64,000 nt of DNA. Source: Ostreococcus lucimarinus. Taxonomy: Eukaryota. A program made the translations under genes and the position numbers. The notes below the pieces were generated by a model. The model saw nothing but the letters and a program-made list of their open reading frames with translations, searched no databases and was not told the DNA's origin. Position 1 is the first letter of the stretch, and each line of letters begins with the position of its first letter. This document shows, piece by piece, positions 16,550 to 40,300 of the stretch. Where the stretch lies: assembly GCA_000092065.1 (NCBI GenBank), contig CP000581.1, one strand, 5' to 3'.

Positions 16550-16679
16550 GGCGCTTGTCTCTTGACCGCACGCGTCGTCTAAAGGCGGATGCGACTGGCC
16601 GCGCGAGGGCTTTCGACTTCGTGGTCCGTGTGGCAAGACCGACATTAGGGCTTTCAGCGCTTTCGAGGCCGTCGGGCGT

Positions 16680-16805
16680 CTGAAGGAGTCTGCTCGTGAT
16701 ACGGACGACGACGATGGTCATCTGAAGGAGTCTACTCGTGATACGGACGACGACGATGGTCATCTGAAGGAGTCTACTTGTAATACATACATACGATGAA
16801 GATCG
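16680..16805. repeat. 42-bp tandem repeat, about 2.7 copies, upstream of RPS15A
   Basis: tctgaaggagtctgctcgtgatacggacgacgacgatggtca is followed by a near-identical copy (g to a) and then a degenerate third copy. It lies about 130-250 bp 5' of the RPS15A ATG on the minus strand, immediately 3' of the cyclophilin gene. Confidence 0.75.
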
Positions 16806-28349: not shown

Positions 28350-29432
28350 TCACGCAAGCTCGTCGTCGAGACCGCGCACGAGGAGCATGAACCACAGAGC
28401 GCTCGTGAAACTCTTCTCTTTAATCGTCATCGTCAACGCGCCGGCGAGGACGGTTTTCACGAGCTGCGCGTCGAGACCTTTGTACATACCACTCACGCCT
28501 TCTTCTCTGTGCACTCGCTTGAGCGTGCCTAATAGCGAACGTCTATCTTCCTCGCGCGTTCCCGCCTTTTGCAAAACCTTGGCGCGCACGAGAGGGTACG
28601 TCAGCATCGTCGCCGTCGCCTTGGACGCGGCGCCGAGGACAAAGGCGTCAAACATCGACAACTCCACGACGGGCTTTAAGATCCCACGCCGCTGCGCGCG
28701 AGCGTTGTGCACGATCATCAACTTTTGACGAAGTTGCTCGAAGACGGTGTATTGAATCGCGGGATTGATCGTCAGCGCGAGTGAAGCGCCGAGACCGCTA
28801 TACAATCCGCCGCGCGCGTCGGCGGCGCCTCGTCCGCCTCGCAACGCTCGTAAAGTGTTTTTGAACCCATCATCGCCCTCGTCGTCATCGAACGCCTTTG
28901 AGCCAGTATCACCGACCGTTTTCTTTCCTTCCAGTTGTTTCCGCGTCGTGTACGTATCTAAAGGCTCCGTGACGAGCACGTTACAGCATCCCGCCGCCGC
29001 CGCCGCCGCGAGCGTCGCCCCCACCCCAATCTTTTTCCCCGTTCGCTCCTCGTACGTCCGCTTCAGCGCGCTGAACGCTAAAAAGTACAAAAAGCTCGAC
29101 GAAAGCGAATGTGCCGACTTCGCCAACGCCCCACCGTACGCCCCCGCCGCGCCTTCCTCGCGAAACACCCGCGCCAACTTTGTCACCCACTGGGGACACC
29201 AAAAACCGTTACCGTCGTCGTCGGCTTCCGAGTTGTTTCCGCGCGCCGCGCTCTCGGCCTGGATCCGCGTCTTCACCGTGTCGATCGGGTATAACGCGAG
29301 CGTGCCGAACAATCCGCCGAGCGCGCCTGCGAACGCGCGCGTCGTCGTCAGTCGCGCGGTTTCGTCGGAAGCGATCGAGCCGTGCGAACGCGTCGAGCCG
29401 TCGAGACGCGCGCGGCGCGACGCGAGACGCAC
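28350..29432 (-). CDS. Mitochondrial carrier family (SLC25) protein
   Basis: Three tandem approximately 100-aa repeats, each with the PxD/ExxK/R-type signature (LYPIDTVKTRIQ, EPLDTYTTRKQ, TYPLVRAKVLQ) and 6 TM helices. Confidence 0.8.
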   Translation of the reverse strand: MRLASRRARLDGSTRSHGSIASDETARLTTTRAFAGALGGLFGTLALYPIDTVKTRIQAESAARGNNSEADDDGNGFWCPQWVTKLARVFREEGAAGAYGGALAKSAHSLSSSFLYFLAFSALKRTYEERTGKKIGVGATLAAAAAAGCCNVLVTEPLDTYTTRKQLEGKKTVGDTGSKAFDDDEGDDGFKNTLRALRGGRGAADARGGLYSGLGASLALTINPAIQYTVFEQLRQKLMIVHNARAQRRGILKPVVELSMFDAFVLGAASKATATMLTYPLVRAKVLQKAGTREEDRRSLLGTLKRVHREEGVSGMYKGLDAQLVKTVLAGALTMTIKEKSFTSALWFMLLVRGLDDELA

Positions 29433-29591
29433 CGGCCAAGGCCTCGACGAGGATCTTATCGTTCGACGTGAGCTTGCTCGACGCCTTGATGACGGACGTC
29501 GTCGGCGTCGGCGTCGACATCGCGAGAAGAGCGTGGAGAAGTGCGGCGCGGCGCGACGCGACGGGCGACGCGGAGGAAGTCGACTCGTGGA

Positions 29592-29766
29592 ATATTATAT
29601 TGAAAAGCTTACTTGAGGAGGAGTTCGGCGCATTGCACGGCGTTTAAGGCGGCGCCCTTCTTGATTTGGTCACCACACACGAACAAATCCAAGCCCTTGT
29701 TGTTGGGCTGGGAGATGTCTTGACGGATGCGACCGACGTAGACGTCGTCGTTATCCGTGGCGTCGA
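29592..29766. repeat. Repeat A: a 175-bp, 100% identical duplicate of the ASADH 3' coding end plus its downstream 32 bp (original at 36001..36175)
   Basis: Compared base by base: atattatattgaaaagcttacttgaggaggagttcggcgcattgcacggcgtttaaggcggcgcccttcttgatttggtcacc...ccgtggcgtcgag is identical at both places. The minus-strand ORF 29609..29839 ends with the same 47 aa as ASADH ([51 protein letters not shown]). Confidence 0.9.
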
Positions 29767-29791
29767 GACACGCCGTAACGCGTCTGCGCGC

Positions 29792-30027
29792 GATCGTCTC
29801 TCTCGTCAGTCTCCCGCGTCGCGTCGTCCTCGCGCGCACGCACCGGCACCTCGCGACGACTCTCGCGTCGGTCGTCGACCGTCAACGCGCCGAGACGCGC
29901 GCGCGCGCCCACCGTCTCGCGCGAGGACGACGACGGTGAAGACGACGCATCGTCTCGCGACGCGTCGGCTCGCGACGCGTCGGCTCGCGACGAGCGCGCC
30001 TCCACGCGCGCGCGAGGGCGCGCGTCC
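29792..30027. repeat. Repeat B copy 1 (about 235 bp; second copy at 34715..34949, about 95% identity, same orientation)
   Basis: atcgtctctctcgtcagtctcccgcgtcgcgtcgtc...gaggacgacgacggtgaagacgacgcatcgtctcgcgacgc...gagggcgcgcgtcc is present on both flanks of the peroxidase-PAN gene, with a few substitutions and one 15-nt unit variation. Confidence 0.85.
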
Positions 30028-30271
30028 ACGAGCTTGTCGCGCCGGGACGCCCGGCGCGCATGCCCCCAGCGCTTGTGCGTGAGACGCCCGCGCGCGTCAT
30101 CAATCAGTTCGCAGCATGGGGAATCCCCATGCCCGAAGAGCGACGCGACGCGGGCGACGAACACTGACGCGCGCGACCAAGACTCGTGCCCGGGTGGGCA
30201 CCTGCCGTTTTTTGTTTTTTTGTTTTTTGTCTATCTACTGTAAAGAGAATGTTAAATATGTAACATCGTGT

Positions 30272-30390
30272 GGGTCCGCTTTAAGTAGTTTAGGTCCGCT
30301 TTAGTACCTAGTAGTGTTTGGATCCGTTATAGTGCTATCTTGGGTCCGCCCTCAGTGGTCGTCCCGACCGACCGACCGACCGACCGATCG
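30272..30390. promoter_or_regulatory. Promoter-proximal degenerate approximately 20-bp tandem repeats (GGTCCGCTTTAGTA-like, 4 copies) followed by a (GACC)6 microsatellite, preceded by a T-rich tract (30206..30232)
   Basis: gggtccgctttaagtag / ttaggtccgctttagtac / ttggatccgttatagtg / ttgggtccgccctcagtgg, then cccgaccgaccgaccgaccgaccgatcgac. They end about 30 bp before the ATG at 30420. This is the only AT-rich upstream stretch in the window. Confidence 0.5.
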
Positions 30391-30419
30391 ACATTCTGGC
30401 GCGCGCGCGTCGCCCCGCG

Positions 30420-33400
30420 ATGGACGAATCGACGCCGTTGATCGGGCGGCGACGGGAAGGGAGACGCGGCGCGCGCGGCGCGCTCGTCGTCGGCGCGCTC
30501 GCGTGCGCGTGCGGAACGCTCGTGGCGTTGGCGAATTGCCCGCACCTGGTGTCGACACTCTCACGGGCGATTGGTGTTGGAGACGCGGACGGCGCGGGTG
30601 CGCGCGGGGTGAACGCGGTCTTCGCGCGCCTCGGTGCGGTGTGGGGACGCGATGATTCTGATTACGTGTACACGTCGCTCGAACGTGATTTACTGCGCCC
30701 TCACGAAGACGACGATGAAATCGAAGACGAAATCGACGAAATTGACGCCGACGCGAAGGACGGAAAGGTTGCCGAACACACTTCGACAGACCAACTGCAC
30801 GGTCGAGGAAACGAAGGCTTGGCAAAGGTCGCAACTCTGGGCGAGCCCGCACTTCCGACCGATTTGCCGCCGTCACGCGCGTTGGCGACGCTCGACGAGA
30901 TTGAAGCTGTTTTACTGGGCAACTGGCGAAAGTGGACGCGCTTGGACGTCGTGCGCGGACGCGCTGAACTGGAAACCGTGCGAGATAAACTCGCTGCTCT
31001 CGTTGGTGATGACGTGAATGAAACAACTGTCGCCAACTCTGCCGCAGAGGTGACAAACGAGACGTCGTTTATTTCTTGCAAGGCTGAACAACTCGTACGT
31101 GAAATCCTGAGTGAGTACGGCGGCGCACCCAAACTTCTACTCCCAAAATTGTTGCGCTTCATTTTCCACGACGCGGTTGACGAGAACAACTTATTAATCC
31201 AAAAGGATGGAGGCTATGTACCGTTTAGGGCACCAACTGGCTCGATATACGGCGGTTTGGACCTTTGCCTTTACTCTCCCCTGACGCATGGAACGTCTGG
31301 GAAACCAGACCCTGGGCATAACAGAAATGTTCGAATGAACCGCGAGGTTATCAAATTGTGTGACGCTGTCTGTAAAGATTTGAATACTGGTTTATGTGAA
31401 CTGCAGAATGATAAACCTAAACGGTGCTATACGGACATGTTAGCGTTTAGTTCCATAATCGTTCTGGAGAAGCACTCAAAGCTTAGTGCCCCATCTTCAA
31501 TGGTTTGGGGAAGGCGAGGCGGTGAGTGTGGCAACAGCATCGTTACACCATTTACCAAAAGCAGGGAGAAGCTTGAATCCTACGTTGGAAAACCTGCGCT
31601 GAACTTTGCGCCGGCGCTTCATGCCATGGACGATCCCGGCACCTTCTCGAGAGTCTTTGCAAAACTTGGATTTACGCCTTCAGAGCACGTCGCGTTGATG
31701 GGAGCTCACAGTGTGGGTAAAATTTCACCATGCGCGAGTGGACTCAACGGTATCGAAAAAGGTAACTTTTGCCCGATGAAGAAGCGATATGATCCACCCA
31801 TCGAGATAGGGAATGAATCCCCACAGTGCCAGCCACAAAAACACGTTCAGGGCAACTGTTGGAAACCCTCTGGACCGAAGTCTTATGCCACTCCGTATTA
31901 CTACTTCTTTCGTGGTGGGAGAACAGGGTACAAGACCGGCTTCGCCGACGGTGGGGTTTGGGATCACACGCCTGATTCGCTTGACAATCAGTATTACAAG
32001 TTGATGTACGACGAAGACTATGGGGGACGCACTAAGTGTTGCGGGAAAAAGAAGAATGGCGGTTGCCATCGGGGTGGGCAACCAGTCGACAGGGAAACTG
32101 GGAGAAAACTCCCTTTTTCCTCATTATGCAACATAAATTGGTGCCGCTCAGACCGCAAAGGTAGGACACACATGAAGTCTACAAAAGCTTGGGTCGAACC
32201 CAGACATTCGCTCTTAAAATTGCCCTACTTTCGCGGAACCATCGTGAAAATGATAAGACTTGCCGGTGATTGGGCTCTTCTCGGGAACAATGAAACACAA
32301 TCGATTCTGAAGCGTTATGCAGAAGATGAAAACGAATTCCATTCCAATTTTGCGGTGGCCTGGGATAAGGTGTTACGGAAGGGGTACTTCCTTGACGAGC
32401 TGAAAACGTGTTCGAACGTGTCAGGACCGAAAGATGCGCAACTTCTTACTCGCCTAAGGGAGTACCAAGCTGCACTGTCGGCCAAACGCGCCAAACGCGT
32501 GGCCAAAAATGCACGACGCGCCGGGGTCGAAGCCGAAAGTTCTGACCAAACATCGAATCTTGGAGATCAAAGTTCACACAACAAACTTGGACAACAAAGT
32601 TCAGCACAAGAAGATGCAACCACAGATAAAACACTGCAAGTTGCAACGGCAACCATGGATGATGCGAAGTACGACGACGGGCTTGACACTGCAACGAACG
32701 CATCGGATCTCGAGCAAGTTGTACCAAAGTCAATTTCAACGACCATTCAACATTGTGATAAGTTCAATGTGCTTGGTCTCGTCAAACACATCCGGTCAGA
32801 GATACAGAAGCTCCCTCGAGATACTACACCTCTTGCGATAGGGCAAGAGCTCACTGCGGCGAGAGACGTAGTCATGGGACAAAACGTACAGATGAGCGAG
32901 CCGACGCCTGCGCCTGCGCCCACACCTACGCCGACGCCTGCGCCTGCGCCTGCGCCTGCGCCTGCGCCTGCGCCTGCGCCCACACCCGCACCTTCGCCAG
33001 GAGTGGAGCAAAGCGACGAGTCCAGCAACGAAGATGGAGGTGACGCGAAAATCTACAGCTTGGAGCACGCAGGCGCACGGTGCGTAGGGCTGCCTCGTGC
33101 CAAGCGAGTGAAGCGAACGCGCAGTGTGGAGGAGTGTGCTGAGTTGGTGAAAAAACGTGGGCACCTCCACTTTGCCTTCCTCCGCAACACCGTGTGCTTG
33201 GAGCAGCCAAAACCGTGGAGCAAATGTCGTCGCATTCGCAAGGGCCGATTTGATCTTTACAAGATCAAAGCAGAGCCTGCGCCTCCTGCGCCTCCGCCTG
33301 CGCCTCCTGCGCCTCCTACGCCGTCTACGTGGTCGTCTACGTGGTCGTCTACACCTTCCACTTACAGTTACAGTGCAGCGACATGCAAGCGCGATCGTGG

Positions 33401-34619
33401 CAAGTTCGTTGATGGGAAATGCTGGCATATGGCTACGACTGACACATCTTGTGAAGAGACATGTGCTGACAAAAATCTTCAATATGATGAGGGCACGCAC
33501 CTGGGCTCGCCGAAGAACCCTGAGACCTGGGACAAGTGTGTGGCTGTCGCCCAGATGTTTAAAAAGCAGGCAAGGACGAATGGGCCAGCGATCGGCGGGG
33601 GTGGTGGCTGTGGCTGTTCAGTCTTTAAGATTCCTGTTTACGGTACGAATGATGCAGTTCGCCTGAGTGGCGCCAATACTACGAGCCCCGAGTGTTGGAA
33701 GATGGGCCCAATCCAAGCACGTCTCTGCGCATGCAAACCAGCATCAGCTGTTGGCGCAAGTTGCACCTCTTCCTCAAGCTGCTTGAACGCTTATTGTAAG
33801 TCAGGCGTTTGCACGAGTTTTTTGGCCCAGAACAGTGCATGCACCGAGCACGCTTCGTGCGTGACAGGCTATTGCTCACCAACGGAACGTAAATGCACGA
33901 CGGTGTCATGGAAGTCACAAAAAGGCGCGTATGCCAAAAAGTACTATAACGCTGGTAAAAAGAAATTCAGGGTTATGCCAAAACAGAAGAACGTACCTGA
34001 TTGGGAGGCGATGACGACGTTTCCAAAGGGTTTTTGTATCGGAAATGACAGCGCCGGTTGCTTGATAGCACGCGGTGTCAACCGCCAGAAGACGATTCAA
34101 AAAGCCAAACAGCGTTGTGCGTCGTCTGAGGAATGCGTGGCTGTTTGGTGTTGCGCAACAGGATGTCCAGCCACGACGTGTCATGCAGTCAAGACTAGAA
34201 CTCCAAATTACGCGGCGAACGATTGCCCGCTCTTTCCTGGAAGCTTCCGCGAGACCAAATACCCGGCTACGTTCTATACTAAAGACACGGAGGGCGCTCA
34301 AGTACACGAGTCACCGCGAAACATCGTGACGGAAGTGGACATTGCTGCGAGTGCCGATGAAGGGGAAAACATGTACAGTCGGATAAAAGGAGGGAAAAGA
34401 AGGAAGGTAGACGCAAAGCAATGCCCCTTACAAAAATTGAAAGCGCACACCTTGGACGAGTGCGCTGAGATGGTGAGGGAACACGGAAGCCTTCACTTTG
34501 CCTTCGGACATAAAAGGTGCTTTTTGGCCAAACAACCGTGGAGCGAATGCGAGACGAGCCATGGCAAGTATGATCTTTTTCAAATCGACGAACACGCACG
34601 CGACGACGATGAAGATTGA
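30420..34619 (+). CDS. Giant secreted/membrane-anchored plant-type (class II/III-like) heme peroxidase fused to Pro-Ala/Pro-Thr mucin-like linkers, Cys-rich modules and two PAN/Apple-like domains (1399 aa)
   Basis: N-terminal hydrophobic anchor (ALVVGALACACGTLVALANC). Peroxidase motifs: LLRFIFHDAV (distal His, R..FHD), ALMGAHSVG (proximal His), DSLDNQYYKLM (FDNxYY). (PA)n and PxxP linkers are encoded by (CCTGCG)n at 32904..32990 and again at 33275..33350. Two approximately 60-aa repeats, ...SVEECAELVKKRGHLHFAFLRNTVCLEQ... and ...TLDECAEMVREHGSLHFAFGHKRCFLAKQ..., have PAN-like Cys spacing. Additional Cys-rich (EGF/GCC-like) segments are present. Confidence 0.7.
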   Translation: MDESTPLIGRRREGRRGARGALVVGALACACGTLVALANCPHLVSTLSRAIGVGDADGAGARGVNAVFARLGAVWGRDDSDYVYTSLERDLLRPHEDDDEIEDEIDEIDADAKDGKVAEHTSTDQLHGRGNEGLAKVATLGEPALPTDLPPSRALATLDEIEAVLLGNWRKWTRLDVVRGRAELETVRDKLAALVGDDVNETTVANSAAEVTNETSFISCKAEQLVREILSEYGGAPKLLLPKLLRFIFHDAVDENNLLIQKDGGYVPFRAPTGSIYGGLDLCLYSPLTHGTSGKPDPGHNRNVRMNREVIKLCDAVCKDLNTGLCELQNDKPKRCYTDMLAFSSIIVLEKHSKLSAPSSMVWGRRGGECGNSIVTPFTKSREKLESYVGKPALNFAPALHAMDDPGTFSRVFAKLGFTPSEHVALMGAHSVGKISPCASGLNGIEKGNFCPMKKRYDPPIEIGNESPQCQPQKHVQGNCWKPSGPKSYATPYYYFFRGGRTGYKTGFADGGVWDHTPDSLDNQYYKLMYDEDYGGRTKCCGKKKNGGCHRGGQPVDRETGRKLPFSSLCNINWCRSDRKGRTHMKSTKAWVEPRHSLLKLPYFRGTIVKMIRLAGDWALLGNNETQSILKRYAEDENEFHSNFAVAWDKVLRKGYFLDELKTCSNVSGPKDAQLLTRLREYQAALSAKRAKRVAKNARRAGVEAESSDQTSNLGDQSSHNKLGQQSSAQEDATTDKTLQVATATMDDAKYDDGLDTATNASDLEQVVPKSISTTIQHCDKFNVLGLVKHIRSEIQKLPRDTTPLAIGQELTAARDVVMGQNVQMSEPTPAPAPTPTPTPAPAPAPAPAPAPAPTPAPSPGVEQSDESSNEDGGDAKIYSLEHAGARCVGLPRAKRVKRTRSVEECAELVKKRGHLHFAFLRNTVCLEQPKPWSKCRRIRKGRFDLYKIKAEPAPPAPPPAPPAPPTPSTWSSTWSSTPSTYSYSAATCKRDRGKFVDGKCWHMATTDTSCEETCADKNLQYDEGTHLGSPKNPETWDKCVAVAQMFKKQARTNGPAIGGGGGCGCSVFKIPVYGTNDAVRLSGANTTSPECWKMGPIQARLCACKPASAVGASCTSSSSCLNAYCKSGVCTSFLAQNSACTEHASCVTGYCSPTERKCTTVSWKSQKGAYAKKYYNAGKKKFRVMPKQKNVPDWEAMTTFPKGFCIGNDSAGCLIARGVNRQKTIQKAKQRCASSEECVAVWCCATGCPATTCHAVKTRTPNYAANDCPLFPGSFRETKYPATFYTKDTEGAQVHESPRNIVTEVDIAASADEGENMYSRIKGGKRRKVDAKQCPLQKLKAHTLDECAEMVREHGSLHFAFGHKRCFLAKQPWSECETSHGKYDLFQIDEHARDDDED

Positions 34620-34621
34620 GT

Positions 34622-34714
34622 CCCAAGAAATGAAATCCTTTACAAGTTTACAAGAAATGAAATCCTTTTACAACAATTTTTGATCACCATCCTTTTTAAA
34701 CAATTTTGATCACC
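34622..34714. repeat. AT-rich 3' UTR direct repeats (caagaaatgaaatcc x2; ttttgatcaccatc x2)
   Basis: Seen directly, immediately after the peroxidase-PAN stop codon. Confidence 0.6.
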
Positions 34715-34949
34715 ATCGTCTCTCTCGTCAGTCTCCCGCGTCGCGTCGTCATCGCGCGCACGCACCGGCACCTCGCGACGACTCTCGCGTCGGTCGTCGA
34801 ACGTCAACACGCCGAGACACGTGCGCGCGCCCACCGTCTCGCGCGAGGACGACGACGGTGAAGACGACGCATCGTCTCGCGACGCATCGTCTCGCGACGC
34901 GTCGGCTCGCGACGAGCGCTCCTCCACGCGCGCGCGAGGGCGCGCGTCC
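34715..34949. repeat. Repeat B copy 2
   Basis: See 29792..30027. Confidence 0.85.
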
Positions 34950-35254
34950 GCGCGTGGCGCGACCGGCGCGCGGGCGCGACCGACGGCGCGAGGCGCTGGC
35001 TATGTGTACGCACTCATAGTAGTGGTCACGATGACGTATCGTGCGCGTTCTTCACCCATCTATTTGCATTCCTCGACATCGCACTCGTAGTAGTGGTCAC
35101 GACGGCGGGAAAACCACCGTTCCTCCGCGGCTCACTGTTTGCGCATAGAGAAAAATTCCGGCGTGGTCGCCCGCGTCAGGAGGGACTCTTGGAGGTGTGT
35201 GACTCGTCGCTACATCTTAAACCTCGTGCGGAGATAGATCCCTTGCGGAGACGA

Positions 35255-35294
35255 TTACGCCGACGAGGGGAGACGATCGACGCGCGCGCGCGCG
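35255..35294. repeat. Repeat C (40 bp, ttacgccgacgaggggagacgatcgacgcgcgcgcgcgcg). Second copy at 35959..35998, directly abutting repeat A / the ASADH 3' end.
   Basis: Seen directly. The two copies flank the PLAC8 gene as direct repeats. Confidence 0.8.
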
Positions 35295-35452
35295 CGGGAC
35301 GCGGCATACATCGACGCACCGCGCGCCAAAACTCTCAAAGTATCGTCACCGAGCGCACACGCTCGATTTTGACGCATCTCGACGCACGTTTGTAACGCGC
35401 GCGACACCTGTTCAATCCTCAATCGGATCACTCAATTAACTTTTAAAACACC

Positions 35453-35836
35453 ATGCCGGAACGTAACCCTGGTTTGGCTTACATGATGCACGTCCCCGGT
35501 GGCTGCATGGAGGACACCGGCGATTGCTGCTACGCGTCCTGCTGCCCGGCTTGCCACATGGGTTCGATCGCGGACAGAACGAACACGGGCAGCTTCTGCA
35601 TGACGGCCGCTATCGCGAGTTGTCTCGGCCCATTCTCGCCCCTCTACTTGAAGTGCGTCGCGAGCAAGGCTCTCGAATCCGTCGGCGTCAAACCGGTCGG
35701 ATACGTGGAATCCTGCTCCATGCCGAGTTGCGTGGCGTGCCAAGTCAGCCGCGAGATCAACGAGAGAAAGCAAATGGGCGGCAAGACCGGCGGCGCGCCC
35801 ACCGCCGCTCCGACGGCGCAAACCGTCGCGCGATGA
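35453..35836 (+). CDS. PLAC8-family (FW2.2/CNR/PCR-like) small Cys-rich membrane protein
   Basis: GDCCYASCCPACHMG...FCMTAAIASCLGPFSPLYLKC...SCSMPSCVACQVSREINERK matches the PLAC8 signature: a CCxxxCCPxC start and a C-terminal CxxCA(L/C)xQxxRE. 127 aa. Confidence 0.75.
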   Translation: MPERNPGLAYMMHVPGGCMEDTGDCCYASCCPACHMGSIADRTNTGSFCMTAAIASCLGPFSPLYLKCVASKALESVGVKPVGYVESCSMPSCVACQVSREINERKQMGGKTGGAPTAAPTAQTVAR

Positions 35837-36017
35837 TTCCAATCATCATCCACTCGCGCCTCGGCCGACGCCATCGGCCGCGCGACGCCTCTGCGTTCGT
35901 CAACGACGACACAGCACGCACGACAATTACAATAAGTTTAATATGAATGACACGCACTTACGCCGACGAGGGGAGACGATCGACGCGCGCGCGCGCGCGA
36001 ATATTATATTGAAAAGC

Positions 36018-37235
36018 TTACTTGAGGAGGAGTTCGGCGCATTGCACGGCGTTTAAGGCGGCGCCCTTCTTGATTTGGTCACCACACACGAACAAATCCA
36101 AGCCCTTGTTGTTGGGCTGGGAGATGTCTTGACGGATGCGACCGACGTAGACGTCGTCGTTATCCGTGGCGTCGAGCGGGGTGGGGAAACGGTTGGCGGC
36201 GCGATCGTCGATGATGGAAACGCCCGCGGCGGAGGACAAGATTTCTTTCGCCTTGACTTCATCGAGCGGGTTCTTCAACGTCAAGTTGATGGATTCCGCG
36301 TGCGCACGCATCACCGGCACCCGAATGCACGTGGCGGTGATGTTGACGTCTTTGAAGTCCCAAATCTTTCTCGTCTCCTTGACCATCTTCATCTCTTCCT
36401 CGTTGTAACCATTCTCCGTCATCGGGGCGTTGTGAGAGAACAAGTTGAACGCATACTGCCACTGGAAGATTTCCATCGTCTTGCACTCACCGTCGTTCAC
36501 CACTTCTCTCGTTTGTTGCTCCAACTCCTTCATCGCGAGCGCGCCGGCGCCGCTCGCCGCTTGGTACGTCGACACGACGATACGTTCGACGCCCACGGCG
36601 CGGTGAATCGGCGTCACCGCCATGAGCGCGATGATGGTGGAGCAGTTCGGGTTCGCGATGATCCCAGCCTTACCACCGAGCTTCAAGTGCGCCATGGCTT
36701 CCGGATTCACCTCCGGAATCACCAACGGCACCCCATCCGTCATGCGAAACGCGCTCGAGTTATCCACCACGAAGCACCCCTTCTCCACCGCCACCGGTCC
36801 AAACTTTTTCGAGATCGACCCCCCCGCGGAGAACAACGCGATATCTTGCCCATCGAACGAGCTCTCCGTCAGTTCCTCCACGACGTACGTCTCGCCGTCG
36901 AAATCCACCTTCGACCCCGCGCTTCGCGCGCTCGCCAGCATCTTCATCTCGCTATACGGAAAGTCCCTCTCCTTGAGCACGCGCAGGAACTCCTGTCCGA
37001 CCGCGCCCGTGATTCCCGCGATGACCACCTTCGGTCCGTCCGCCGTTCGCTTCGCCTCGACGCGCACCGCCCCTCGCGTCCCGCGCGCGCCCCGCGCGAT
37101 CCTTTTCGTCGTCGCTTTCAGCGCGTTCGCGTTCGCGATTCGCGCTCTCGCGCTCGTCGTCGCGCGCATCGTCGTCGTCCGCTCGTCCCTCGTCCCTCGT
37201 CGGCGCTCGTCGCGGCGCGTCGGCGTGTGTCGCAC
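36018..37235 (-). CDS. ASD: Aspartate-semialdehyde dehydrogenase with an N-terminal transit-like extension
   Basis: VVIAGITGAVGQEF (Rossmann fold), GIIANPNCSTIIALMAVTPIH (active-site Cys), ...YQAASGAG... and the C-terminal [19 protein letters not shown]. The first 70 aa are R/T/A-rich. Confidence 0.85.
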   Translation of the reverse strand: MRHTPTRRDERRRGTRDERTTTMRATTSARARIANANALKATTKRIARGARGTRGAVRVEAKRTADGPKVVIAGITGAVGQEFLRVLKERDFPYSEMKMLASARSAGSKVDFDGETYVVEELTESSFDGQDIALFSAGGSISKKFGPVAVEKGCFVVDNSSAFRMTDGVPLVIPEVNPEAMAHLKLGGKAGIIANPNCSTIIALMAVTPIHRAVGVERIVVSTYQAASGAGALAMKELEQQTREVVNDGECKTMEIFQWQYAFNLFSHNAPMTENGYNEEEMKMVKETRKIWDFKDVNITATCIRVPVMRAHAESINLTLKNPLDEVKAKEILSSAAGVSIIDDRAANRFPTPLDATDNDDVYVGRIRQDISQPNNKGLDLFVCGDQIKKGAALNAVQCAELLLK

Positions 37236-37504: not shown

Positions 37505-40300
37505 ATGCCGATGCGGTTGGACATCAAGCGCAAGCTCGTGCAGCGGAGCGACCGGGTGAAGGGGGTGGAGATACACCCCACGGAACCGTGGATACTGACG
37601 AATCTGTACTCGGGGAACGTGGCGATATGGGATTACGAGACGAACGCGCTGGTGAAGTCGTTCGAGGTGACGGAACTGCCGGTGAGGACGTCGAAGTGGA
37701 TCGCGCGCAAGCAGTGGATCGCGACGGGGGCGGACGACATGTTCCTGAGGGTGTATAATTATAACACGTCGGAGTTGGTGGTCGGGTTCGAGGCGCACAG
37801 CGATTACATACGGTCGATCGCGGTGCATCCGACGCAACCGTACGTGGTGACGTGCTCGGATGATATGCTCATCAAGCTTTGGGATTGGGAAAGGCAGTGG
37901 GACTGCGCGATGGTGTTCGAGGGACACTCGCACTACGTGATGCACGTGGTGTTCAACCCGAAGGATACGAACACGTTCGCCAGCGCCTCGCTCGATCGCA
38001 CCATCAAGGTGTGGAACGTGACGTCGCCGGTGTGCAATTTTACGCTCGAGGGTCACGAAAAAGGGGTCAACTGCGTCGACTACTTCGCCGGCGGCGATCG
38101 CCCGTACCTCATCTCCGGCGCTGACGATAAGTTGGCTAAGATTTGGGATTACCAGACGAAATCGTGCGTTCAAACGCTCGAAGGTCACGCGCACAACGTT
38201 TCGGCGGTGAGCTTCCACCCCGAACTTCCCGTGATCATCACCGGGAGCGAGGACGGGACGCTGCGCATCTGGCATCAGAATACGTATCGCTTGGAGAACA
38301 CGCTCAACTATGGATTGGAGCGGGTTTGGGCGATCGGTTGCTTGAAGGGATCGAATTCGGTGGCGATCGGTTACGACGAAGGGACGGTGATGTTCAAGAT
38401 CGGTCGCGATGAGCCCGTGGTGAGCATGGACAGCACCGGTAAGATCATCTGGTGCAAACACAACGAAGTGCAGACGACAAACGTCAAGGCGCTTCCGGCG
38501 GATTACGAAGCCGCGGACGGTGAGAGACTGCCGTTACCGGTGAAGGAACTCGGTAACAGTGAACTGTACCCGCAGAGCTTGGCGCACAACCCGAACGGAC
38601 GGTTCGTTGCCGTTTGCGGCGACGGCGAATACATCATCTACACCGCCCTCGCGTGGAGAAATAAGAGCTTCGGGAGCGCGATTGAATTCGCTTGGAGCAT
38701 CGATCCCAGCGAGTTCGCTGTTCGTGAAAGTTCGAGTAAGATTAAAGTTTTCAAGAACTTTACGGAAAAGAACGCTTTCCGCCCTAATTTCACCGCTGAA
38801 GGTTTGCACGGCGGCGCATTGCTCGGTCTTCGCTCGACGGATTTCATTTGCTTTTACGATTGGGATGAGTGCCGTGTCATTCGTCGCTTGGATGTGTCGG
38901 TTAAAAACGTCATCTGGAGTGAGTCGGGTGAAATGGTCACCATAGTAAGCGATACGAGCTTCTTTATCCTGCGATACAACCTTGAAGCGACTGCGGAGGC
39001 TTTCGCATCTGGACACGTGGACGAGAGCGAGGGCGTTGAAGAGTCGTTCGAGCTGATTTCCGAAATCAACGAGTCGGTCAGCACGGGTATTTGGGTGGGA
39101 GATTGCTTCATCTACACTAACACCGATAAGCGTTTGAACTACTGCGTCGGTGGCGAAGTGACGACCCTTACACACTTGGATCGTTCCATGTTCATCTTGG
39201 GTTACCTCGCGGCGCAAAACCGTGTCTTCTTGATGGACAAGAATTTTGCCGTCGTGTCCTTTACTTTGCTGTTGACCGTGGTCGAATTCAAGACATTGAT
39301 CCTTCGCGGTGAGTTGGAGGCCGCAGAGGAAGTTCTCGAGACGATCCCGGTCGATCAGCACAATTCCATCGCGCGCTTCCTCGAGTCTCGCGGCTTGGTG
39401 AGCGACGCCTTACGCATTGCGACCGACCCGGATTTCAAGTTTGAACTCGCTGTTCAATTAGGTGAACTCGATATCGCCCGAGAAATCGTAGAAACGGAAG
39501 GTGCGAATGAGTCGAAATGGAAGCAACTCGGTGAGCTTGCGATGTCGAATGGTGACCTCGAGCTCACGAACAAGTGCTTAGAAAAGTCTGGAGATTTGTC
39601 TGGTCAGTTGTTACTTGCGACCTCATCTGGATCACCAGAGACGCTCAAGCAACTCGTGGAGGAATCGAAACTCAAGGGTAAGAACAATGTGGCGTTTGTA
39701 TCGATGTTCATGCTGAAAGATATCGATGGTTGCATCGACTTATTGATCGAGACAAAGCGTATTCCCGAGGCGGCGTTCATGGCGCGCACATATGCGCCGA
39801 GTCGTGTATCTGAAATCATCGCATTGTGGAAGGATGACTTGAGTAAGGTAAACAAGAAGGCAGCCGAGGCTTTAGCCGATCCAGCGGGACATCTGGAGTT
39901 ATTCGAAGGCTTTGATGAGGCACTCGACGCGGAAAAACACGCCAGAGCGCAAGCGGGCGCCCAGGCCGACGCGTGCGAATATGGCGTCGGGCTCGCCGTT
40001 GACAAGCTTACGGATGCGATCGACGACATCGATGTGAACGAGCAACAAGATCAGTCAGAAGCTGTAGCGGAGCCCGAAATCGAGGAAGAGGCGTCGCCGG
40101 AATCCGATATCGCGGTGGAGCCAGAATCTGAAGTGGTGGATGAGGCGGAACAGGAAGTCGAGGCAGAACAGGAAGTCGAGGCGGAACAGGAAGTCGAGGC
40201 GGAACAGGAACCCGAGGTATCATCCGGCGAGCCAGCCGCAGATGGTGGTGAAGAGGATTGGGGTTTGGACGATGACGCCGCACCGGCGAAGGCTGATTAA
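37505..40300 (+). CDS. COPB2: Coatomer subunit beta-prime (COPB2)
   Basis: MPMRLDIKRKLVQRSDRVKGVEIHPTEPWILTNLYSGNVAIWDYETNALVKSFEV... is near-identical to eukaryotic beta-prime COP WD40 repeats. An alpha-solenoid follows, then an acidic Glu/Gln-rich tail encoded by (GGAACAGGAAGTCGAGGC)n. Confidence 0.9.
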   Translation: MPMRLDIKRKLVQRSDRVKGVEIHPTEPWILTNLYSGNVAIWDYETNALVKSFEVTELPVRTSKWIARKQWIATGADDMFLRVYNYNTSELVVGFEAHSDYIRSIAVHPTQPYVVTCSDDMLIKLWDWERQWDCAMVFEGHSHYVMHVVFNPKDTNTFASASLDRTIKVWNVTSPVCNFTLEGHEKGVNCVDYFAGGDRPYLISGADDKLAKIWDYQTKSCVQTLEGHAHNVSAVSFHPELPVIITGSEDGTLRIWHQNTYRLENTLNYGLERVWAIGCLKGSNSVAIGYDEGTVMFKIGRDEPVVSMDSTGKIIWCKHNEVQTTNVKALPADYEAADGERLPLPVKELGNSELYPQSLAHNPNGRFVAVCGDGEYIIYTALAWRNKSFGSAIEFAWSIDPSEFAVRESSSKIKVFKNFTEKNAFRPNFTAEGLHGGALLGLRSTDFICFYDWDECRVIRRLDVSVKNVIWSESGEMVTIVSDTSFFILRYNLEATAEAFASGHVDESEGVEESFELISEINESVSTGIWVGDCFIYTNTDKRLNYCVGGEVTTLTHLDRSMFILGYLAAQNRVFLMDKNFAVVSFTLLLTVVEFKTLILRGELEAAEEVLETIPVDQHNSIARFLESRGLVSDALRIATDPDFKFELAVQLGELDIAREIVETEGANESKWKQLGELAMSNGDLELTNKCLEKSGDLSGQLLLATSSGSPETLKQLVEESKLKGKNNVAFVSMFMLKDIDGCIDLLIETKRIPEAAFMARTYAPSRVSEIIALWKDDLSKVNKKAAEALADPAGHLELFEGFDEALDAEKHARAQAGAQADACEYGVGLAVDKLTDAIDDIDVNEQQDQSEAVAEPEIEEEASPESDIAVEPESEVVDEAEQEVEAEQEVEAEQEVEAEQEPEVSSGEPAADGGEEDWGLDDDAAPAKAD

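What the first reader, a model, noticed from the sequence alone, without database searches (positions are those of the whole stretch)
35255..35998. PLAC8 gene flanked by identical 40-bp direct repeats
The repeat is TTACGCCGACGAGGGGAGACGATCGACGCGCGCGCGCGCG. It occurs 160 bp upstream and 120 bp downstream of a complete 127-aa PLAC8 ORF. The downstream copy abuts the ASADH stop region.

Short direct repeats bracketing a single small gene look like a target-site duplication or a recombination footprint. They are nested inside the larger A...A' duplication.
Basis: seen in the sequence. Interest (0 to 1): 0.5.

Follow-up and report, generated by a model that had tools for sequence, protein, structure and literature searches.

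The report
Junction scar of a copied gene
The two identical 42-bp repeats around a small PLAC8-like gene are real, but they are a repair scar left where a copied gene segment was pasted next to another gene in a marine picoalga (Ostreococcus), not the footprint of a mobile element.

Summary
The repeat is confirmed and is 42 bp, not 40: 35255-35296 and 35958-35999, identical, with no other copy in the window.

It is not genome-wide. A scan of JGI metagenome contigs found its core at only two kinds of locus.

The window is from an Ostreococcus-like alga. The PLAC8-like gene lies in a segment (34715-35957) that is 91-93% identical to another locus, DUF8204-PLAC8-RanBP1, in related genomes. There the 42-mer occurs once, upstream of the gene.

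Homology to that donor locus stops at 35957. The second 42-mer fills the gap up to a duplicated 178-bp ASADH 3' end.

Many contigs with an identical ASADH protein carry the empty site, with Mito_carr next to ASADH and a single 178-bp copy. So 29768-35998 is a segregating 6.2-kb insertion with a 178-bp target duplication.

The downstream 42-mer is therefore a junction patch copied from inside the insert. Laboratory DNA insertions in O. tauri show the same anatomy.

It is not a target-site duplication and not a mobile cassette. This is an ordinary mechanism with a well-documented natural example, so interest is modest.

Side observations are alternative haplotypes at the site and dN/dS of about 4 in the PLAC8-like gene.

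The parts
35255..35296 (+). r1: the original copy of the 42-mer, part of the conserved upstream (promoter or 5'UTR-proximal) region of the PLAC8-like gene
   Evidence: It lies inside the uninterrupted homology of 34715-35957 to the donor locus. It is single-copy there and partly conserved down to the 79%-identical lineage L015 and its relative L053.
35958..35999 (+). r2: secondary copy of r1 (42/42 identical) filling the right-hand junction between the copied segment and the duplicated ASADH 3' end. Its last base is shared with a2.
   Evidence: Donor homology ends at 35957, and the donor continues GTCCATCCATCGACC.... r2 is absent in haplotype L008 and longer (56 bp plus 22 bp of filler) in haplotype L025/L026/L021.
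35453..35836 (+). PLAC8-like ORF, 127 aa, a divergent PLAC8 branch
   Evidence: Pfam PLAC8 gives 20.6 bits, below the gathering score. The family profile finds only 15 proteins among 1.84e9 representatives. The distant ones hit PLAC8, and P0153 scores 43 bits, above the gathering score. dN/dS against the donor copy is about 3.8.
34715..35957 (+). S: a copy of the DUF8204-PLAC8 region of the DUF8204-RanBP1 locus. It holds a 5' fragment of the DUF8204 CDS, the divergent intergenic region, r1, PLAC8 and the 3' flank.
   Evidence: blastn gives 91-93% identity to L011:7295-8505 and L014:1180-2404, and 79% to L015. The donor context is conserved in L011-L015. The core shared by all filled haplotypes is 35036-35957.
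34715..35036 (+). b2 patch: the left part of S in this haplotype, 99.4% identical to the L014 donor type (2 differences in about 322 bp), so a recent secondary copy from the donor locus
   Evidence: This stretch is replaced by 166 bp of unknown origin in L002/L003/L006/L048 and by a different gene in L025/L026.
29590..29767 (-). a1: the ancestral-position copy of the ASADH 3' end (19 nt of UTR plus the last 159 nt of CDS) next to the Mito_carr 5' region. It is one arm of the 178-bp target duplication.
   Evidence: Window 28366-29767 is colinear with O. tauri L019. The empty alleles L029/L032-34/L036/L040/L043/L045 have this copy only.
35999..36176 (-). a2: the second arm of the target duplication, forming the functional 3' end of ASADH (CDS 36018-37169)
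   Evidence: It is 100% identical to a1. In the empty alleles the left and right flanks overlap on exactly one 178-bp copy.
29760..30030 (+). b1: an older copy of the DUF8204 5' fragment (donor L011:7262-7529). It joins a1 through an 8-bp microhomology, GCGTCGAG, at 29760-29767.
   Evidence: Junction sequences are. Identity is 95-96.6% to the donor and 96.2% to b2.
30031..34714 (+). BIG segment: a 1399-aa ORF (30420-34619) with a peroxidase-like domain and its flanks, lying between b1 and b2. It is part of the 6.2-kb insertion.
   Evidence: ORF. Pfam peroxidase E=1.5e-11. It is absent from the empty alleles and from haplotype L025/L026. GC3 is 54.5% against 69-82% for neighbouring genes.
29768..35998 (.). 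The whole segregating insertion (6231 bp) relative to the empty allele
   Evidence: Empty and filled alleles occur among contigs encoding the identical ASADH and Mito_carr proteins.

Best explanation
The downstream 42-mer (r2) is a junction patch. It is a short second copy of the PLAC8 gene's own upstream sequence (r1, 703 bp away), written into the right-hand junction when, or shortly after, a copied DNA segment was pasted between ASADH and Mito_carr by illegitimate (end-joining or template-switching) repair of a chromosome break.

Shown:
1. The ancestral, still-segregating allele has ASADH directly next to Mito_carr.
2. The filled allele carries 6.2 kb of extra DNA flanked by a 178-bp direct duplication of the ASADH 3' end.
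3. The PLAC8 part of the insert is a copy of the DUF8204-PLAC8-RanBP1 locus. It includes a truncated DUF8204 fragment, which fixes the direction of copying.
4. Donor homology ends one base before r2, and r2 ends at the first base of the duplicated ASADH end.
5. The left junction uses an 8-bp microhomology.
6. The zone occupied by r2 differs between haplotypes: 42 bp; 56 bp plus 22 bp of filler; or no r2 but a longer donor copy plus 18 bp of filler.

Inferred: the enzymology (Pol-theta or NHEJ-type templated synthesis, or replicative template switching), and whether the patch arose at the first insertion or in a later repair at the same junction.

The repeat pair has no demonstrated function. 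r1 is probably promoter or 5'UTR sequence.
For: - Repeat exact and unique in the window.
- Donor locus and the extent of homology, 34715-35957.
- Junction sequences and the 8-bp microhomology GCGTCGAG.
- r is single-copy upstream of PLAC8 in L011, L014, L015 and L053.
- O. tauri has ASADH next to Mito_carr, colinear with window 28366-29767.
- Empty alleles have one 'a' copy, in contigs encoding the identical ASADH and Mito_carr proteins.
- Haplotype variation is confined to the junction zone.
- The r core is found in only 9 JGI metagenome stretches, all at these two loci.
- Experimental precedent in O. tauri line T3: a vector insertion flanked by a 518-bp direct target duplication, with a 62-bp duplication of an internal noncoding vector segment at the 3' junction and 83 bp of filler of unknown origin (PMC8002553).
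Against: - Junctions J2 (35957|35958) and J3 (r2|a2) show only 0-1 bp of microhomology, so a templated-synthesis primer site cannot be pointed to.
- The donor locus exists as a tandem array in some haplotypes (L023/L028). There a second r naturally follows PLAC8, so r2 could be a remnant of a second unit rather than a fresh copy of r1.
- Haplotype L008 (no r2) carries donor sequence plus array spacer up to the same a2 boundary. Whichever state is ancestral, one later event must have ended within 1-2 bp of that boundary. This is unexplained.
- In haplotype L025, r1 and r2' differ at 2 core positions.
Confidence: 0.55

Rival explanations
1. r2 is the leftover of a second tandem PLAC8 unit. The donor was a haplotype with a tandem duplication: x-r-PLAC8, then a 228-bp spacer, then x'-r'-PLAC8'. 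The copied tract ran from DUF8204 through unit 1 and the spacer into unit 2, ending after r'. Later deletions removed the spacer and x', leaving r' as r2.
For: - Donor haplotypes L023/L028 carry exactly such an array: unit L011:7569-8535 plus a 228-bp spacer.
- Haplotype L008 at the ASADH locus still has 34 bp more donor sequence plus 160 bp that are 94% identical to that spacer.
- Haplotype L025 keeps 13 more bp of x-type sequence left of r2.
- The core shared by all filled haplotypes (35036-35957, equivalent to L011:7616-8505) nearly equals the tandem unit.
Against: - No haplotype with spacer + x' + r' contiguous at the ASADH locus was seen among about 35 contigs.
- Beyond 13 bp, the sequence left of r2' has no significant similarity to x.
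- r2 is 42/42 identical to r1 in this haplotype, although the two units of the donor array are 94-98% identical to each other.
- L008 would need a deletion ending exactly at the a2 boundary.
Confidence: 0.28
2. The 42-mers are a target-site duplication, or attachment-site-like repeats, made when a mobile PLAC8 cassette inserted.
For: Identical direct repeats bracket a single small gene. The gene is indeed at a non-ancestral position.
Against: - The empty site lacks the 42-mer.
- r is part of the copied segment and is single-copy at the donor.
- The copied segment extends 540 bp beyond r1 to the left.
- The real target duplication is 178 bp of ASADH.
- There are no terminal inverted repeats apart from the (CG)n tracts, and no transposase or integrase domain was found in the ORFs scanned against Pfam.
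- The r core occurs at only two kinds of locus in the JGI metagenome contigs.
- There is no viral homolog.
Confidence: 0.03
3. r2 is kept because it works. For example, a (CG)8 or Z-DNA-forming insulator or terminator between the convergent PLAC8 and ASADH genes, or a regulatory motif needed on both sides.
For: r1 is conserved across donor lineages. r2 is retained in most filled haplotypes and is 100% identical to r1.
Against: - L008 lacks r2 yet encodes the identical PLAC8 and ASADH proteins.
- Donor loci have no downstream copy.
- The conserved block around r1 extends past r's right end (GGGACGCGGCATAC...), so r is not a discrete conserved module.
- No Rfam family matches.
Confidence: 0.06
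4. Chance low-complexity match or assembly artefact.
For: 16 of the 42 bases are a (CG)8 tract, and the genome is rich in CG-repeats.
Against: - 0 matches in 100 shuffles.
- The 26-bp non-repetitive part is also identical.
- The same structure occurs in more than 20 independent assemblies from different samples.
Confidence: 0.01

Closest known systems
Random DNA integration in Ostreococcus tauri transformants (line T3; Cells 2021;10:664, PMC8002553)
   Same: The insert is flanked by a long direct duplication of the target (518 bp there, 178 bp here). A short duplication of an internal noncoding part of the insert sits at its 3' junction (62 bp there, 42-56 bp here). There are short fillers of unknown origin (83 and 64 bp there, 18-22 bp here). 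The genus is the same.
   Different: There the insert was a transforming plasmid introduced with PEG. Here it is native genomic DNA from another chromosomal locus, fixed in natural populations and further remodelled into several haplotypes. The repair pathway is not established in either case.
Filler DNA and templated insertions at end-joining junctions (plant T-DNA integration, Pol-theta-mediated end joining). This comparison rests on my own knowledge; relevant references are listed in PMC8002553.
   Same: A junction patch is copied from sequence near the break. Microhomology is present at one junction (8 bp).
   Different: Typical templated insertions are shorter and copied from within tens of bp. 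Here 42-56 bp are copied from about 700 bp away, and two junctions lack microhomology. Pol-theta involvement was not tested.
Replicative template switching (FoSTeS/MMBIR) complex rearrangements. This comparison rests on my own knowledge.
   Same: Insertion of a distant segment is combined with duplication of the target and short templated pieces at breakpoints. Different haplotypes show repeated rewriting of the same junctions.
   Different: There is no direct evidence for a replication-based origin. Junction microhomology is present at only one of three junctions.
Transposon target-site duplications and cassette-flanking repeats
   Same: Identical short direct repeats bracket one gene.
   Different: The repeat is donor sequence, not target. 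It is absent from the empty site. There are no terminal repeats, no recombinase or transposase domain in the ORFs scanned against Pfam, and no family of copies.

Membership tests
Mobile-element target-site duplication | The repeat sequence is present once at the empty (pre-insertion) site and doubled at the filled site | tested here: not met
   The empty alleles (L029, L032-34, L036, L040, L043, L045) contain no copy of the 42-mer. What is doubled is the 178-bp ASADH 3' end.
Mobile-element target-site duplication | Element termini (TIR or LTR) and/or an element-encoded transposase or integrase | tested here: not met
   The only inverted repeats are the self-complementary (CG)n tracts. The ORFs scanned against Pfam gave PLAC8-like, peroxidase and semialdehyde-dehydrogenase hits only.
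Mobile-element target-site duplication | Multiple copies at unrelated sites with the same flanks | tested here: not met
   The r core occurs in 9 JGI metagenome stretches. All are either the ASADH locus or the DUF8204-RanBP1 donor locus. Only that one collection and the fetched loci were searched.
Break-repair insertion with target duplication and junction patch (as in O. tauri transformants) | Filled and empty alleles differ by an insertion flanked by a direct duplication of target DNA | tested here: met
   The insertion is 6231 bp with a 178-bp duplication. The flanks of the empty alleles overlap on exactly one copy. O. tauri is colinear with the empty state.
Break-repair insertion with target duplication and junction patch (as in O. 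tauri transformants) | The junction patch is a copy of sequence internal to the insert | tested here: met
   r2 (35958-35999) equals r1 (35255-35296) at 42/42 positions. Donor homology stops at 35957.
Break-repair insertion with target duplication and junction patch (as in O. tauri transformants) | Microhomology at junctions | tested here: inconclusive
   There are 8 bp (GCGTCGAG) at the a1|b1 junction, but 0 bp at 35957|35958 and 1 bp at the r2|a2 junction.
Break-repair insertion with target duplication and junction patch (as in O. tauri transformants) | Dependence on the end-joining or Pol-theta machinery | not testable with these tools
   This requires genetics in culture.
PLAC8 family (Pfam PF04749) | Match to the family HMM at or above the gathering score | tested here: not met
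   The window protein scores 20.6 bits against a gathering score of 34.4, with E=8.6e-4 and full-length profile coverage (7-101 of 101). 4 of 6 close relatives hit, all below the gathering score.
PLAC8 family (Pfam PF04749) | Transitive homology to bona fide members | tested here: met
   A profile of the family finds distant relatives (P0145-P0153). 7 of the 10 scanned hit PLAC8, most of them over the whole profile. P0153 scores 43 bits, above the gathering score.
PLAC8 family (Pfam PF04749) | Cys-rich CCxxxxCPC-type motif | tested here: inconclusive
   The sequence shows DCCYASCCPAC (CPAC instead of CPC), and the motif varies among paralogs. The canonical motif is recalled from memory. The AF2 model has pLDDT 38 and is unusable.

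The most novel reading that the evidence does not exclude
The PLAC8 segment, and perhaps the whole 6.2-kb block, did not come from the alga's own genome. It was acquired from a different, co-occurring Ostreococcus lineage by a natural transformation-like event.

Three observations fit this reading:
- The donor-type contigs are found in the same sample series as a second species whose genes are only 73-87% identical to the window.
- The insert has the same junction anatomy as laboratory PEG transformants.
- The captured PLAC8-like gene then evolved under strong positive selection (dN/dS about 4) as a dispensable, presence/absence accessory gene at a recurrently rewritten site.
Probability: 0.15. 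Interest if true: 0.7.

Novelty: new member of a known kind. Interest (0 to 1): 0.33.

Why it matters
The 42-bp repeat itself is a by-product and has no demonstrated function.

The locus is nevertheless a clean natural example of how gene copies move in a very compact picoalgal genome. Empty and filled alleles still segregate. The donor locus is identified. All three junctions are readable. The signature matches what is seen when DNA is forced into O. tauri in the laboratory.

This links laboratory integration outcomes to natural gene duplication and presence/absence variation in Ostreococcus. It also flags one intergenic site, the ASADH 3' end next to the Mito_carr 5' end, that has been rewritten several times.

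It is useful to specialists but does not change how we think about genome evolution.

Tried and rejected
- **Target-site duplication or mobile cassette.** Rejected on the empty allele, the single r at donor loci, the lack of termini and the lack of a copy family.

- **b1/b2 as a target duplication made when BIG inserted into the copied segment.** This was my working idea. It was weakened because b2 plus 82 bp is 99.4% identical to the L014 donor type but only 96.2% identical to b1, so b2 looks like a later patch from the donor.

- **The 166-bp alternative segment of L002/L003/L006/L048 as a diverged homolog of b2.** Local alignment is only marginally above mononucleotide shuffles, so its origin is left unknown.

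- **Assigning the donor contigs (L011 type) to a species.** GC and GC3 do not discriminate. A second species' ASADH (P0012/L052) occurs in the same JGI series. The 99.4% b2 patch and two shared derived bases in r1 of L025 suggest the donor locus is in the same gene pool. This is not settled.

- **DUF8204 homolog search.** It gave a third lineage (P0131/L049) but no link to the window's genome.

- **AlphaFold model of the PLAC8-like protein.** pLDDT was 38, so no fold search was run. A PDB sequence search found nothing.

- **Viral contigs.** No relative of the protein was found.

- **Rfam on 29400-36200.** Nothing was found.

- **Literature search for PLAC8 plus Ostreococcus.** No papers were found.

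Full report
**Observation.** The repeat is real and slightly longer than reported. TTACGCCGACGAGGGGAGACGATCGA(CG)8, 42 bp, lies at 35255-35296 and 35958-35999. The two copies are identical.

Allowing 3 mismatches, these are the only two copies in the 64-kb window. None of 100 dinucleotide-preserving shuffles gave a match.

The copies bracket a 127-aa ORF at 35453-35836 (+). The downstream copy ends 18 nt from the stop codon of an aspartate-semialdehyde dehydrogenase gene, ASADH, CDS 36018-37169 (-).

**Organism.** The window has 57% GC and long uninterrupted ORFs, including a 931-aa WD-repeat protein at 37505-40300. The closest named ASADH is that of Ostreococcus tauri, at 85% amino-acid identity. 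It is therefore an Ostreococcus-like picoalga whose proteins are not in NCBI.

**Is it a PLAC8 gene?**
- Pfam PLAC8 matches over the whole profile, but at 20.6 bits against a gathering score of 34.4.
- The family is tiny. There were 8 hits among 5.8e9 proteins. A profile search found 15 among 1.84e9 representatives.
- Most of the distant members hit PLAC8, and one (P0153, 43 bits) passes the cut-off.
- I call it a divergent PLAC8-like gene. An AlphaFold model was unusable, with pLDDT 38.

**Where the gene came from.**
- The closest homologs are P0002 (87% identical) and P0005 (67%). They lie in a different, conserved neighbourhood in other contigs...Aldedh, L-PSP, Voldacs, DUF8204 (-), PLAC8 (+), RanBP1 (+), nucleoporin....
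- At the DNA level, window 34715-35957 is 91-93% identical to L011:7295-8505 and L014:1180-2404, and 79% identical to L015.
- The copied tract includes the first ~70 codons of DUF8204 and nothing more of that gene. This truncated fragment shows that the window copy is the derived one.
- In the donor loci of four lineages or haplotypes (L011, L014, L015, L053), the 42-mer region occurs once, upstream of PLAC8, inside a conserved block. Nothing like it follows the gene.

**The junctions.** Donor homology stops at 35957, where the donor continues GTCCATCCATCGACC... In the window the next 42 bases are the second 42-mer. Its last base is the first base of a 178-bp segment, 35999-36176, that is 100% identical to 29590-29767.

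That segment is the 3' end of ASADH: 19 nt of UTR plus 159 nt of CDS.

In O. tauri, ASADH is followed directly by a mitochondrial-carrier gene (Mito_carr). Window 28366-29767, which holds Mito_carr, the intergenic region and the first 178-bp copy, is colinear with that arrangement.

**The empty site.** Many metagenome contigs encode exactly the window's ASADH and Mito_carr proteins and are 99.4-99.98% identical in DNA. Eight of them carry the empty site: L029, L032, L033, L034, L036, L040, L043 and L045. In these, the left and right flanks overlap on a single 178-bp copy.

So 29768-35998 (6231 bp) is an insertion that still segregates, and it is flanked by a 178-bp target duplication. Among the longest contigs read, empty and filled alleles were about equally common. 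This is a biased sample.

The left junction, ASADH fragment to DUF8204 fragment, uses an 8-bp microhomology, GCGTCGAG. The two junctions around the second 42-mer have 0 and 1 bp.

**Specificity of the 42-mer.** A degenerate 25-nt core of the repeat was scanned against the JGI metagenome contig collection. It matched 9 stretches only. All are either this ASADH locus or the DUF8204-RanBP1 donor locus.

**Haplotypes.** The site is structurally polymorphic. I name the states as follows.

| Haplotype | Contigs | Structure |
|---|---|---|
| H0 | L029, L032-34, L036, L040, L043, L045 | Empty site |
| H1 | Window, L001, L022, L031, L035, L037, L039 and others | As in the window |
| H2 | L002, L003, L006, L030, L038/L048 | 34688-35014 replaced by 166 bp of unknown origin; the upstream 178-bp and DUF8204-fragment copies are kept |
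| H3 | L021, L025, L026 | See below |
| H4 | L008 | See below |

- **H3.** Everything from 29548 to 35035 is replaced by a different gene of about 435 aa with no Pfam hit. The downstream repeat is 56 bp, with 13 more bases of upstream-type sequence, and is preceded by 22 bp of filler. Its r1 differs from its r2 at two core bases.
- **H4.** There is no downstream repeat. Donor homology runs 34 bp further. Then come 160 bp that are 94% identical to a 228-bp spacer, then 18 bp of filler, then the same ASADH boundary.
- **The spacer.** It separates two tandem PLAC8 units in donor haplotypes L023/L028.
- **The shared core.** All filled haplotypes share only 35036-35957, which nearly equals the donor's tandem unit (L011:7569-8535).
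- **Relatedness.** Copies at the ASADH locus are 97-100% identical to each other and 92-94% identical to donor copies.

**Interpretation.** The second 42-mer is neither target DNA nor an element terminus. It is a short extra copy of the insert's own upstream region, sitting in the few dozen bases between the end of the copied tract and the duplicated target. That zone is written differently in different haplotypes.

This anatomy has been described for forced DNA integration in O. tauri. In line T3 the vector was flanked by a 518-bp direct duplication of the target gene. It had a 62-bp duplication of an internal noncoding vector segment at its 3' end, and 83 bp of unknown origin at its 5' end (PMC8002553). 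The authors proposed an NHEJ-like mechanism.

I therefore read r2 as a templated junction patch from illegitimate break repair or template switching (confidence about 0.55).

The main rival (about 0.28) is that r2 is what remains of a second tandem unit copied from an array-type donor. H4's spacer and H3's longer repeat favour this. The lack of any intermediate haplotype, and the 42/42 identity to r1, do not.

Both readings make the repeat a rearrangement scar.

One point remains unexplained. H4 and H1-H3 differ right up to the same ASADH boundary, within 1-2 bp. So a later event must have ended almost exactly where the first one did.

**The larger duplications.** The 178-bp pair is the target duplication.

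The 235-bp pair flanking the 1399-aa gene is not a simple target duplication. The downstream copy plus the next 82 bp (34715 to about 35036) is 99.4% identical to the L014 donor type. It is only 96.2% identical to the upstream copy, and the rest of the copied segment is 87-93% identical to donors.

This looks like a recent patch copied again from the donor locus. It suggests, but does not prove, that the donor locus is in the same gene pool.

A second Ostreococcus species, whose genes are 73-87% identical to the window, occurs in the same JGI sample series as the donor-type contigs. The donor's species is therefore not settled.

**Selection on the gene.** Between the window copy and the donor copy there are 25 nonsynonymous and 2 synonymous differences. 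dN/dS is about 3.8, and one-sided Fisher p=0.03. The changes cluster in the Cys-rich segments. Twelve of them are specific to the H1 lineage within 35527-35643.

**Verdict.** The mechanism is of a known kind, so interest is modest. The locus is a tidy natural example, and the side observations may interest specialists.

Noticed in passing
window 29768-35998; empty alleles L029, L032-L034, L036, L040, L043, L045: The whole 6.2-kb block (BIG gene plus PLAC8 segment) is a presence/absence polymorphism among genomes with identical ASADH and Mito_carr proteins. It is flanked by 178-bp direct repeats that are 100% identical in most contigs and differ by 1-2 bases in L046 and L048. The empty allele could be ancestral, or regenerated by recombination between the repeats.
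   Followed up: yes
L025:2191-3731 (also L026, L021): An alternative haplotype carries a different ORF of about 435 aa, with no Pfam hit, in place of window 29548-35035. It lacks the upstream 178-bp copy and the BIG gene.
   Followed up: partly
window 30420-34619 (+): The 1399-aa ORF has a weak peroxidase domain, PAPAPA-type repeats (about 32900-33000 and 33270-33330) and many Cys. Its GC3 is 54.5%, against 69-82% for neighbouring genes, so its composition is atypical for this chromosome. Its origin was not traced.
   Followed up: partly
window 35453-35836 versus L011:8001-8384: The PLAC8-like copies differ by 25 nonsynonymous and 2 synonymous changes (dN/dS about 3.8, Fisher p=0.03), clustered in the Cys-rich segments. 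There is a burst on the lineage of the window haplotype at 35527-35643.
   Followed up: partly
window 34715-35036 versus L014:1180-1500: This stretch is 99.4% identical to one donor haplotype, while the adjacent copied sequence is 87-93% identical. It is a recent second copying event from the donor locus (ectopic conversion or patch).
   Followed up: yes
L023:12537-12977 and L028:10987-11623: The donor locus exists as a tandem duplication of the PLAC8 unit (L011:7569-8535), separated by a 228-bp spacer of unknown origin.
   Followed up: partly
window 29590-30164 (-); protein P0136: In some haplotypes an ORF runs from upstream of BIG through the DUF8204 N-terminal fragment into the duplicated ASADH C-terminus (53 aa), giving a 187-aa chimeric ORF. 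In the window the frame is closed, giving a 137-aa ORF at 29751-30164.
   Followed up: no
L016:11170-15398 and L017: In a related species (ASADH 91% identical at the amino-acid level), an unrelated 1362-aa gene sits at the same position, after the ASADH 3' end. This intergenic site has therefore been rearranged independently.
   Followed up: partly
L015:8001-8312: The PLAC8-like copy in the 79%-identical lineage has an in-frame stop or frameshift near its 5' end. It is a possible pseudogene or a sequencing error.
   Followed up: no
window 40124-40231 and 16664-16789: There are an 18-bp coding tandem repeat (EAEQEV units) in the C-terminal tail of the 931-aa WD-repeat protein, and a 42-bp tandem repeat (3 copies) at 16664-16789.
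   Followed up: no
window 30190-30350: An AT-rich stretch upstream of BIG holds T-runs and four copies of the motif GGTCCGC spaced about 20-40 bp apart. This is unusual in an otherwise GC-rich region.
   Followed up: no
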